DNA from: Octopus sinensis | Lineage: Eukaryota | DNA length: 64,000 bases | Direction: 5' to 3' | Assembly: GCF_006345805.1 (NCBI RefSeq) | Contig: NC_043001.1 | Coordinates: 118,792,001-118,856,000 of the forward strand | In this document: positions 17,694 through 26,661 of the stretch, in pieces | Layout: every line of letters begins with the position of its first letter | Numbering within the stretch: the first letter of the stretch is position 1 | Made by a program: the position numbers and the translations under genes | The notes under the pieces: generated by a model | Databases searched by the model: none | What the model saw: the letters and a program-made list of their open reading frames with translations, nothing else | What the model was told of the DNA's origin: nothing

Positions 17694-18085
17694 GGCGCAG
17701 GAGTGGCTGTGTGGTAAGTAGCTTGTTTACCAACCACATGGTTCCGGGTTCAGTCCCACTGCATGGCACCTTGGGCAAGTGTCTTCTACTATAGCCTCGG
17801 GTCGACCAAAGCCTTGTGAGTGGATTTGGTAGACGGAAACTGAAAGAAGCCCGTCGTATATATGTATATATATATATGCGTGTGTGTCTTTGTGTGTCTG
17901 TGTTTGTACCCCTAGCATTGCTTGACAACCGATGTTGGTGTGTTTATGTCCCCGTTACTTAGCGGTTCGGCAAAAGAGACCGATAGAATAAGTACTGGGC
18001 TTACAAAAGAATAAGTCCCGGGGTCGAGTTGCTCGATTAAAGGTCGTGCTCCAGCATGGCAGCAGTCAAATGACTGAAGCAAGTA
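17694..18085 (+). mobile_element. tRNA-derived SINE family A, full length
   Basis: ggcgcaggagtggctgtgtggtaag head through cagtcaaatgactgaagcaagtaaaa tail. Confidence 0.9.
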
Positions 18086-18400
18086 AAAAAAAAAAAAAAG
18101 AAAAAAAGATATATACACACACACACACACATACAGCACATTATTTTATTCTTTTACTTGTTTCAGCCATTTGACTGTGGCCATACTGGAGCACTGCCTT
18201 TAGTTGAGCAAATCGCCCTCAGGATTTATTCTTTGTAAGCCTAGTCTATTTTGCCGAACTGCTAAGTTACAGTGACATAAACACACCAGCATTGGTTGTC
18301 TAGCAATGTTTGTTTTTTTGGGGGAGGGGGGCAAACACACACACAAACATATACAAACACATATATGTGTGTGTGTGTATATTATATATAAATAGCATTA

Positions 18401-18898
18401 TTAAATCTCTGAATGAGATGTAAACAGTAACCGCTCGACAATGTAAAGTATAATAGCCATCTCAATATGGCTAACCACAAAGTGGGGTGTGTTACTGTAG
18501 CTCCTCAGCCCCAGGAGATCATCGTCTCCAGCTGGCTTTAGGCACACTATCTGTGCCCTTATGGTATTTGCAAAGGAAGGCCATCCCTTTCTCGTAAGCC
18601 TAAGTGATACGCACGGACTGCAGTTTCGAGGTTGTTGCCTCTTGTCAACGGCGGTAATCACCGGATTATGATGAAAGGTGATTACCGCCCGTTGACAAGA
18701 GGCAACAACCTCGAAACTGCAGTCCATGCGTATCACTTAGGCTTACGAGAAAGGGATGGCCTTCCTTTGCAAATACCATAAGGGCACAGATAGTGTGCCT
18801 AAAGCCAGCTGGAGACGATGATCTCCTGGGGCTAAAAGCTACAGTAACACCCACCCTTTGTGGTTAGCCATATTGAGATGGCTATTATACTTTACATT
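18401..18898. mobile_element. Inverted-repeat non-autonomous PLE-like element with HHR motifs at 18610-18653 (-) and 18686-18730 (+)
   Basis: Arms 18440-18662 / 18677-18898, 14-nt loop, few mismatches; cgccg-TTGACAA-gagg caacaa cctc-GAAAC-tgca-GTC-cgtgcg. Confidence 0.7.
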
Positions 18899-18911
18899 AT
18901 ATATATATATA

Positions 18912-19450
18912 TATATTATATTAAATTAGAGACAAAACCACTATTATGCAAATCAAACAATGAAAGACTTAATCCAATACATAAATTAAATTATATTATT
19001 TAGATATGTAACAATTATTAAAAAATATAATTAATATCCACTACGATCGTTTCCTGTCTTCTGTCATCAAATTTTTGAGTACCAGACATTCATCAGACAT
19101 TCATCAGGTGGTTTCAAAATTTTCTTGGCGAGTTTTAAAACTCGCCAAGAAAATTTTGAAACCACCTGATGAATGTCTGATGAATGTCTGGTACTCAAAA
19201 ATTTGATGACAGAAGACAGGAAACGATCGTAGTGGATATTAATTATATTTTTTAATAATTGTTACATATCTAAATAATATAATTTAATTTATGTATTGGA
19301 TTAAGTCTTTCATTGTTTGATTTGCATAATAGTGGTTTTGTCTCTAATTTAATATAATATAATATTTTACTATAAAATTGGATTCAATCCTAAATCTGAT
19401 TTTTCCCTGTAAGTTTGGATTTATTCCCTAATATTTATTATTAATTATAT
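18912..19450. mobile_element. Spacerless palindromic PLE-like element with HHR motif at 19162-19235 (+) and its mirror on (-)
   Basis: Palindrome 18912-19361 centred at 19136/19137; ccac-CTGATGA-atgtct...agacag-GAAAC-gatc-GTA-gtgg; right arm extends about 90 nt further. Confidence 0.75.
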
Positions 19451-19456
19451 ATATAT

Positions 19457-19514
<58 letters not shown>

Positions 19515-19927
19515 CATAACAGGTTTCTTTCAGCTTTCATCTACCAAATCTACTCACAAGGCCTTGGTTGGCTCAAGGCTATAGACGCCCAAGTTGCCAC
19601 ACAGCAGGACTGAACCCGGAACCATGTGGTTGGTTAGCAAGTTACTTATCACACAGCCATGTTTATTATTACTTTTGCCCCCAAAATTACTGATGCTAGT
19701 GTTATTTTTTTTTCCATTTAAGATGTTTCAGCAAAGAGACAAGAAAATAATGACCTCCTCCTTTCCCTTAAGAAAAGAAATATTAACTTACATAGAAAAT
19801 GTAATGACAAAAATAAATACAAAATTGATATAATTCTAATCAAACTGAATTTTATGTACCATTTTTTTAATTTCCCAGACATGACAGTATTGTGGATCAG
19901 TTATCCATCACTTCAAACACCAAGATA

Positions 19928-26376: not shown

Positions 26377-26661
26377 ATTATTTACAATTGACAGTTATTT
26401 GTCCTCATCTTGTTTGTTGTTAACACAACGTTTCGGCTGATATACCCTCCAGCCTTCATCAGGTGTCTTGGGGAATTTTCGAACCTGGGTTCTCATTCCT
26501 AAGGTATGAGAACCTAGGTTGGAAATTTTCCCAAGACACCTGATGAAGGCTGGAGAGTATATCAGCCGAAATGTTGTGTTAACAACAAACAAGATGAAGA
26601 CAAATATAGGTCAATTGTAAATAATGTACATAATTCCTCATCTCTTAAAAATAGAACTGTA
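26377..26661. mobile_element. Inverted pair of the HHR tail of the 19928-20325 family; HHR motifs at 26422-26467 (-) and 26535-26580 (+)
   Basis: Arms 26377-26496 / 26506-26625; minus strand gacac-CTGATGA-a-ggctg gagggtatat cagcc-GAAAC-GTT-gtgtt is intact. Confidence 0.8.

What the first reader, a model, noticed from the sequence alone, without database searches (positions are those of the whole stretch)
18440..18898. 223-bp-arm hairpin whose hammerhead has a U3-A8 covariant core
Seen: both arms read TTGACAA instead of CTGANGA, followed by stem II gagg/cctc, GAAAC, palindromic actgcagt, a GTC cleavage triplet and stem I cgc(c)cg/cgtgcg. Established: C3-G8 is a tertiary Watson-Crick pair and U3-A8 is a known functional natural variant. 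Inference: the double change points to selection for activity, and standard descriptors would miss it. Arm mismatches argue against a foldback artefact.
Basis: partly seen in the sequence, partly recalled or inferred. Interest (0 to 1): 0.7.

Follow-up and report, generated by a model that had tools for sequence, protein, structure and literature searches.

The report
Back-to-back retrozyme insertion, known hammerhead variant
This hairpin is two back-to-back partial copies of a 353-base repeat found in hundreds of copies in this genome, likely a protein-free passenger of Penelope-type jumping genes; its predicted self-cutting RNA carries an already published core base-pair swap that is standard for its subfamily, so the locus itself is ordinary.

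Summary
The hairpin and both U3-A8 hammerheads are real. The arms are head-to-head, 5'-truncated copies of a circularly permuted 353-nt repeat (714 exact core-blind pattern matches). U3-A8 is a subfamily trait: 68 of 71 copies, none C3-G8. Across sister subfamilies, 52 cores are C3-G8, 26 U3-A8 and 6 mixed of 84. That favours selection in the mobile lineage, not at this locus: the arms are not independent, the right arm's stem I is damaged, and a read-through RNA would bury the core. U3-A8 in Penelope-type hammerheads (PMC4209133), its activity (PMC3088659), and inverted copies with a one-sided tail (PMC3846280, PMC8557442) are published. The family data add two points. In 47 of 48 classifiable inverted insertions one arm ends at unit position ~173 and the other at ~220, and arm lengths exclude simple fold-back, which points to two-site priming from both target strands. 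A LINE-derived element also lands just upstream of these hammerheads. The scan has already noted similar 360-365-nt U3-A8 families and the LINE targeting elsewhere in this genome. New member of a known kind; cleavage untested.

The parts
18394..18678 (-). Left copy of the 353-nt unit, unit positions ~290 to ~220 (long 'B' 3' end), 285 bp, 5'-truncated
   Evidence: blastn to a natural cut-to-cut monomer from L033, 94% identity
18394..18439 (-). 46-bp unpaired 3' extension ('tail') between the family's A and B ends, on the left copy only
18604..18662 (-). Left type I hammerhead: stem I 5' strand 18662-18649 (1-nt deletion), core TTGACAA 18648-18642, stem II 18641-18628, GAAAC/palindromic stem III/GTC 18627-18616, stem I 3' strand 18615-18604
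18663..18678 (.). 14-nt loop (unit sequence of the left copy) and 2-nt GG overlap at 18677-18678 where the two 5' ends join
18677..18898 (+). Right copy of the unit, positions ~306 to ~174 (short 'A' 3' end), 222 bp
   Evidence: 96%; 99% to its closest copy L002
18677..18736 (+). Right type I hammerhead: core TTGACAA 18692-18698, stem II 18699-18712, GAAAC/stem III/GTC 18713-18724, stem I weakened by private G>A at 18726
18899..18915 (.). (TA)n target; TA-rich sequence also flanks the left end (about 18375-18393)

Best explanation
The hairpin is one head-to-head insertion of two 5'-truncated copies of a 353-nt, circularly permuted repeat, likely a non-autonomous Penelope-type retrozyme, whose predicted hammerhead has U3-A8 as the fixed state of its subfamily. 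Shown: family, unit size, fixed ends, core states, TA-rich targets. Inferred: tandem source copies are transcribed; neighbouring hammerheads pair through the palindromic stem III and cut as a dimer; a circular or multimeric RNA that spans the cut site is reverse-transcribed in trans by a Penelope-like RT/GIY-YIG protein. That protein would nick both strands of a TA-rich target and prime one cDNA at unit position ~220 and the other at ~173. Both stop early and join at their 5' ends through a short overlap, giving an inverted repeat with a tail on one side. The U3-A8 pair was likely kept because source elements need a paired 3-8 position. This genomic copy is likely a dead-end product: its ribozymes face away from each other on opposite strands, and a read-through RNA would fold them into double strand.
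For: Family and unit: 714 matches; 353-nt monomer; tandem periods 347-355; 77 of 229 pieces exceed one unit and wrap round the cut site; none of 77 free 5' flanks shares a Penelope ORF with another, the one ORF junction being L033. Core: 68 of 71 U3-A8, 0 C3-G8, hand count; 52 C3-G8, 26 U3-A8, 4 U3-G8, 2 C3-A8 of 84; each mixed core sits separately on a tree built without the core; five near-fixed differences inside the ribozyme and none fixed in the 168 nt downstream, 20 vs 12 copies; position 10.1 was used to define the groups. Stem III variants stay self-complementary (63 of 72 are one of three palindromes; duplex -9.7 to -14.1 kcal/mol, monomer hairpin positive). Architecture: 41 of 81 insertions head-to-head. 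Outer ends one A plus one B in 20 of 21 and 27 of 27 classifiable cases, P about 4e-14 against independent choice. In 17 of those 27 the A arm reaches further 5' than the B arm (hand count), so neither arm can be a fold-back copy of the other. Same signature as Penelope insertions and as the two internal RT start sites and two-strand cleavage/extension of PAc. A young RT/GIY-YIG element exists in the genome and is joined 5'-to-5' to a unit dimer at L033. Hairpin fold: core unpaired with probability at most 0.001; opening costs about 49 kcal/mol.
Against: No cleavage, circular RNA or transcript was shown. The mobilising element is not identified: the unit has no sequence similarity to the L033 element's 3' end (best E 4.6), the junction is one case, and its GIY-YIG match is below Pfam's cut-off (20.5 vs 22.6 bits). 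7 of 28 and 14 of 41 inverted insertions had an end outside the A/B windows and were left out of the A/B count. Amplified sister subfamilies carry U4C (13 of 84 read CCGACGA or CCGAAGA) and a C.A mismatch at 10.1-11.1 (51 of 52 C3-G8 cores), so the core is not tightly optimised. The number of independent 3-8 switches is small, and the tree is poorly resolved and could not be rooted. PAc's hammerhead was not needed for insertion in vitro, and PAc showed no strand difference in start site.
Confidence: 0.8

Rival explanations
1. The unit is the pseudo-LTR of a protein-coding Penelope-like element and the hairpin is its usual folded stump.
For: The same architecture is typical of coding PLEs; earlier scan notes reached this reading for other palindromes in this genome (unchecked).
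Against: Long copies wrap into the unit itself, up to 843 bp, and 1209 bp for the 65% relative L036; tandem periods are 347-355 with no ORF between; no 5' flank of 77 is a shared PLE ORF. Only about 160 loci of many hundreds were read.
Confidence: 0.1
2. U3-A8 is not maintained for cleavage: the ribozyme module was swapped in from another family or hitch-hiked on a successful source copy, and cuts weakly or not at all.
For: Five changes cluster in 21 nt, as a module swap would give. U3-A8 also occurs in a distantly related family (L203, L208), and the 65% relative L036 shares stem II with this subfamily. U4C subfamilies amplified. Minimal PLE hammerheads cut poorly in vitro.
Against: No amplified subfamily is unpaired at 3-8; mixed cores are 6 of 84 and scattered; stems II and III vary while keeping pairing. 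A swap would still have imported a paired core.
Confidence: 0.25
3. The inversion arises by self-priming or fold-back copying of one strand (antisense self-priming was proposed for Penelope), not by two primers.
For: Proposed in PMC3846280. At this locus the A arm lies wholly within the B arm, and the two arms group together on the tree (83/81); four opposite-strand arm pairs are closer to each other (0.042-0.054) than to their subfamily (0.061-0.081).
Against: In 17 of 27 A/B insertions the A arm is longer at its 5' end than the B arm, while the B arm always runs about 46 nt past the A end (hand count). Arm similarity is also expected from one RNA template or from later gene conversion.
Confidence: 0.15
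4. The hairpin or its ribozymes have been kept for a host function at this locus.
For: Both cores are intact.
Against: Arm divergence (8 of 224) is in the range of other copies; both stems I carry private changes; about half of all family insertions are such hairpins. Host gene context was not established.
Confidence: 0.03
5. Assembly or library fold-back artefact.
For: Long inverted repeats are artefact-prone; no laid contig spans the whole structure.
Against: Outer ends fall on the family's two biological ends; 8 arm differences; a 63-nt contig of run X16 (depth 37.5, no differences) covers 18473-18535 with the left arm's private changes and bridges 18504 (X16 may be the assembly's own sample); inverted insertions outside microsatellites carry target duplications of about 8-12 bp (L094, L098, L114, L115, L136, L143, by eye).
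Confidence: 0.02

Closest known systems
Minimal type I hammerheads of metazoan Penelope-like elements, including the U3-A8 variant of Schistosoma Cercyon (Cervera and De la Pena 2014, PMC4209133; parts 1-2 of 4 read)
   Same: U3-A8 instead of C3-G8; G10.1-C11.1; small palindromic helix III that needs a dimer; two motifs 100-700 bp apart on opposite strands
   Different: 4-bp stem II with no extra base between A9 and 10.1; extended bulged stem I; here both core states coexist in one young repeat family
Metazoan non-LTR retrozymes (Cervera and de la Pena 2020, PMC7229834, passages and section 14; Li et al. bioRxiv 10.64898/2026.07.22.740005, part 1 of 5 and passages)
   Same: About 350-nt tandem unit with a type I hammerhead, no RT, strongly self-paired predicted circle (z -5.1), proposed PLE mobilisation; mussel units are 350-390 bp
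   Different: Mostly dispersed sub-dimer copies, half of them head-to-head with a PLE tail; 'inverted' occurs 0 times in PMC7229834; circular RNA not shown here
Insertion structure of EN+ Penelope-like elements (PMC3846280 passages; PMC8557442 passages; PAc in PMC11167929, parts 1-2 of 4)
   Same: Inverted 5'-truncated copy, head-to-head, tail on one end, AT/(TA)n targets, short target duplications, two internal RT start sites bounding the tail
   Different: No RT/EN ORF; tail about 46 nt rather than 30-40; the one-A-one-B rule is near absolute here (47 of 48), where the papers call the tail optional or often one-sided
Natural U3-A8 hammerheads (Perreault et al. 2011, PMC3088659; passages)
   Same: C3-G8 pair covaries to U3-A8 in nature; such ribozymes reported active in vitro
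   Different: Those examples are other ribozymes; this sequence is untested

Membership tests
Type I minimal hammerhead of PLEs | Core boxes (3-9, GAAA, UH triplet) in type I order | tested here: met
   U3-A8 variant form
Type I minimal hammerhead of PLEs | Watson-Crick pair between positions 3 and 8 | tested here: met
   78 of 84 cores C-G or U-A (Fisher P 3e-15, which ignores shared descent)
Type I minimal hammerhead of PLEs | Stem II closed by G10.1-C11.1 | tested here: met
   both arms; 25 of 26 U3-A8 cores
Type I minimal hammerhead of PLEs | Palindromic short helix III (dimer-dependent) | tested here: met
   63 of 72 are one of three self-complementary 8-mers
Type I minimal hammerhead of PLEs | Stem I | tested here: inconclusive
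   6 bp in sister subfamilies, one mismatch in this subfamily; 5 bp with a bulge on the left arm; largely broken next to the cut on the right arm
Type I minimal hammerhead of PLEs | [quoted passage not shown] | tested here: not met
   A9 is followed directly by G10.1 in U3-A8 copies, as in canonical hammerheads
Type I minimal hammerhead of PLEs | Self-cleavage after GUC | not testable with these tools
   needs in vitro transcription
Non-LTR retrozyme | 170-400-nt unit in tandem with a type I hammerhead per unit | tested here: met
   353-nt monomer; dimers with periods 347-355; no long arrays seen
Non-LTR retrozyme | No RT or endonuclease of its own | tested here: met
   tblastn with five PLE peptides hits flanks, not units; a stop-free frame of up to 99 codons crosses some copies and was not tested for coding signal
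Non-LTR retrozyme | Highly self-paired circle; GC under 45% | tested here: inconclusive
   predicted circle -111 kcal/mol, z -5.1 vs 60 shuffles; GC 45.0%
Non-LTR retrozyme | Accumulates as circular RNA | not testable with these tools
   only contigs of runs with unrecorded library type were available
EN+ Penelope-like element (insertion signature) | Head-to-head inverted 5'-truncated copy with a tail on one end | tested here: met
EN+ Penelope-like element (insertion signature) | AT-rich/(TA)n target, short target duplication | tested here: met
EN+ Penelope-like element (autonomous member) | Single ORF with RT and GIY-YIG between pseudo-LTRs | tested here: not met
   works like a PLE passenger, is not itself an autonomous PLE

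The most novel reading that the evidence does not exclude
This family is a fossil record of the unsolved Penelope insertion step: an RT-endonuclease dimer primes two cDNAs on a non-coding ribozyme RNA circle, always one at each of two sites 46 nt apart, one per target strand. The family also switched its ribozyme as a block (U3-A8 with G10.1-C11.1 versus C3-G8 with C.A), and it is itself the specific landing site of a LINE-derived parasite.
Probability: 0.4. Interest if true: 0.55.

Novelty: new member of a known kind. Interest (0 to 1): 0.3.

Why it matters
The locus itself is ordinary. The family is useful. It offers natural, nearly isogenic hammerheads in both 3-8 states, which allows a clean test of whether a weaker U-A pair needs a stronger stem II closure. 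Its short, abundant insertions turn the loosely described Penelope 'tail' into a countable rule (47 of 48) that can be tested in the existing in vitro PLE system, bearing on how PLEs make inverted repeats. It also supports PLE mobilisation of animal retrozymes by an insertion signature rather than by co-occurrence.

Tried and rejected
Rfam scan: only hairpin-driven microRNA matches far below gathering scores and no hammerhead family; uninformative. First descriptor demanded an unbroken 3-bp stem I and found nothing; relaxed. Pattern had too long a gap and caught another U3-A8 subfamily (34 of 38 TTGACAA, hand count); redone, of whose 714 matches only the first 100 were listed and 80 regions fetched. 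Expression: no RNA holder listed; contigs of four runs only guessed to be RNA hold family variants, which says nothing on this locus, strand, cleavage or circles. No laid contig spans the hairpin. Rooting and dating the subfamilies failed: within-group distances 0.069-0.091 and equal distance to the outgroup (7 non-homologous rows dropped); bootstrap unsettled, so the direction and number of 3-8 switches are open. Peptide EN36 ran into a SINE; those tblastn hits were ignored. No similarity between the unit and the candidate partner's 3' end. No host gene identified around the locus (ORF list; only LINE fragments recognised by eye). Literature: 'hammerhead ribozyme'+'C3U'+'G8A' found 0 papers; 'retrozyme'+'octopus' found 2 listings, neither about such a family by title. 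Supplements of PMC4209133 and PMC8557442 were not read and may list this family. A by-sequence look-up of earlier scan findings found nothing.

Full report
Observation. The inverted repeat is there: 18440-18662 pairs with 18677-18898 over 224 columns with 8 differences. Each arm carries a type I hammerhead motif with core TTGACAA, a 4-bp stem II, GAAAC, the palindrome ACTGCAGT and GTC. A strict descriptor finds these two and none in 100 shuffles of the window. The ribozymes lie on opposite strands, pointing outwards. The right arm has a private G>A at 18726 that breaks stem I beside the cut site, and the left arm lacks one base of the 5' stem I strand. Seven of the eight differences are on the left arm relative to other copies (comparison). 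A contig of run X16 matches 18473-18535 exactly, so the cluster near 18504 is in reads, although X16 may be the assembly's own sample.

What the arms are. The window lies in a 2.72-Gb genome; a cephalopod origin is my guess and the wording of earlier notes, not a test. The right arm retrieves dispersed copies at 95-99%. A tandem at L033 gives a cut-to-cut monomer of 353 nt; other tandems have periods of 347-355. Against this ruler the left copy runs from unit position ~290 across the cut site to ~220 (18678-18394) and the right copy from ~306 to ~174 (18677-18898). Their 5' ends overlap by two bases. So the loop and a 46-bp tail belong to the left copy. Of 229 unit pieces, 77 exceed one unit and wrap into the unit itself. 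Among 77 free 5' flanks, the shared matches were, by eye, other common repeats or short pieces of the unit itself, or the LINE-type end described below; a Penelope ORF was joined to a unit only at L033. The template therefore spans the cut site, which means a circle or an uncut multimer (inference). The monomer folds as a strongly self-paired circle (z -5.1 against 60 shuffles).

Is U3-A8 private or fixed? Fixed. Exact patterns give 84 U3-A8 copies, 1 C3-A8 and 1 C3-G8, the last in a 65-67% relative. A core-blind pattern for this subfamily gives 68 of 71 with both U3 and A8 and none with C3-G8 (hand count). A wider core-blind pattern has 714 matches. In 80 regions fetched from the first 100 listed, 84 cores split into 52 C3-G8, 26 U3-A8, 4 U3-G8 and 2 C3-A8. 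Mixed cores are scattered singletons on a tree built from the 168 nt after the cut site. Between the nearest U3-A8 and C3-G8 subfamilies (20 and 12 copies), positions 3, 7, 8, 10.1 and 11.1 differ almost without exception, while nothing downstream is fixed (10.1 was used for grouping). U3-A8 goes with G10.1-C11.1 (25 of 26) and C3-G8 with a C.A mismatch there (51 of 52). Stem III varies among three self-complementary forms in 63 of 72 copies. This favours selection on ribozyme structure in source elements. Against: few independent switches, an unrooted and poorly resolved tree, amplified U4C subfamilies (13 of 84), and a module swap that cannot be excluded, since a distant family also has U3-A8.

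How the hairpin formed. Of 81 insertions in the core-blind set, 41 are head-to-head. 3' ends cluster at ~173 (A) and ~220 (B), next to TA-rich DNA; 5' ends vary. Single-orientation copies use both ends (24 A, 10 B, 3 other; 17 A, 19 B, 4 other). Inverted insertions with both ends classifiable are A/B in 20 of 21 and 27 of 27; 7 of 28 and 14 of 41 had an unclassifiable end and were left out. Independent choice predicts about half mixed (P about 4e-14). In 17 of the 27, the A arm reaches further 5' than the B arm, while B always runs past the A end (hand count), so neither arm can be a fold-back copy of the other. This locus alone cannot show that. Published work describes the inverted copy, the one-sided 30-40-bp tail and TA targets (PMC3846280 passages; PMC8557442 passages). 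It also shows that a purified Poseidon protein cuts and extends both target strands, starts at two internal RNA sites bounding the tail, and is predicted to be a dimer (PMC11167929 parts 1-2). I infer two coordinated priming events, one per strand and one per site. A young RT/GIY-YIG family with its own canonical hammerhead is present (1,999 first-look candidates, 97-100% identity among the 40 scored), and at L033 a unit dimer is joined 5'-to-5' to a truncated copy of it. That is one case with no shared sequence, so the partner remains a candidate.

Function at this locus. A transcript through the hairpin in either direction makes the antisense arm first. The core is then paired with probability above 0.999, and freeing it costs about 49 kcal/mol. 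Helix III is unstable as a monomer and stable as a duplex, so cutting needs two sense copies, which this locus cannot supply in one transcript. The copy is most likely inert.

Comparison with what is known. PMC4209133 (parts 1-2 of 4) reports U3-A8 in Penelope-type minimal hammerheads, a descriptor for it with about 1,300 hits in Schistosoma, paired motifs on opposite strands 100-700 bp apart, and low dimer-dependent cleavage. PMC3088659 (passages) reports natural U3-A8 and cites its activity. PMC7229834 (passages and section 14) defines non-LTR retrozymes, with 350-390-bp units in mussel. The 2026 preprint (part 1 of 5 and passages) argues that they are PLE passengers. The element meets the sequence criteria for a retrozyme and the PLE insertion signature and fails the autonomous-PLE criterion; cleavage and circular RNA could not be tested. 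My searches found no paper on this family; supplements were not read. Earlier scan notes describe 360-365-nt U3-A8 families, PLE-type ends and LINE targeting elsewhere in this genome. They agree with my reading but are unchecked and are not used as support.

Side finding. Some copies begin at ~293 directly after, or end at ~312 directly before, a roughly 1.1-1.7-kb element with a weak zinc-knuckle match; a related flank carries zf-RVT. Among 25 of its best genomic matches (two being the query locus and its duplicate), 15 have a hammerhead motif within 130 nt downstream, against 2 of 984 background windows. Eleven show a 12-17-nt target duplication by eye. Calling it Tx1/L1-type rests on recall and on earlier notes.

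Verdict. Real, explained, and known in kind: an inverted Penelope-type insertion of a likely retrozyme with a published core variant. Modest added value comes from the strict A/B rule and the paired core states. Interest 0.3.

Noticed in passing
window 18912-19440: A second, unrelated head-to-head insertion in the same (TA)n tract: perfect 225-bp arms with no loop, a canonical CTGATGA hammerhead with an 11-bp duplication of the core region on each arm, and about 78 bp of extra tail on the right arm; other copies end at 19361 in laid contigs.
   Followed up: partly
window about 26380-26625: A third hammerhead-bearing inverted repeat, canonical core, 6-bp stem II.
   Followed up: no
L188-L212; L007, L070, L103, L105, L142, L158: A LINE-derived element with a zinc-knuckle ORF inserts about 25-35 nt upstream of hammerhead cores of this and distantly related units: 15 of 25 with a descriptor hit downstream, target duplications of 12-17 nt in 11 of 25.
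   Followed up: partly
L055 (cut sites 355 apart), L069: Tandems in which a U3-A8 unit sits next to a C3-G8 unit, pointing to mixed templates or template switching.
   Followed up: no
L083-L162: Amplified subfamilies with U4C (CCGACGA, CCGAAGA; 13 of 84) and a C.A mismatch in place of G10.1-C11.1 in 51 of 52 C3-G8 cores; stem II varies as AGG/CCT and GGG/CCC.
   Followed up: partly
L033:3754-6750: Unit dimer joined 5'-to-5' to a truncated RT/GIY-YIG element of a young family that has an asparagine-rich linker and its own canonical hammerhead.
   Followed up: partly
L197, L203, L208: A distantly related family that also has a U3-A8 core, with a shorter stem III.
   Followed up: no
L036:5072-6280: A 360-bp-period relative (65%) in 3.4 tandem copies with a fully canonical C3-G8, G10.1-C11.1 hammerhead whose stem II equals this subfamily's.
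   Followed up: partly
L083-L162, unit positions 281-300: 5' ends are about twice as frequent in this bin (15 vs 5-9 in neighbouring bins), partly due to the LINE insertions; possibly a transcription start.
   Followed up: no
window 17698-17880, 17916-18308, 19495-19660: Copies of common SINE-like repeats in both orientations around the locus.
   Followed up: no
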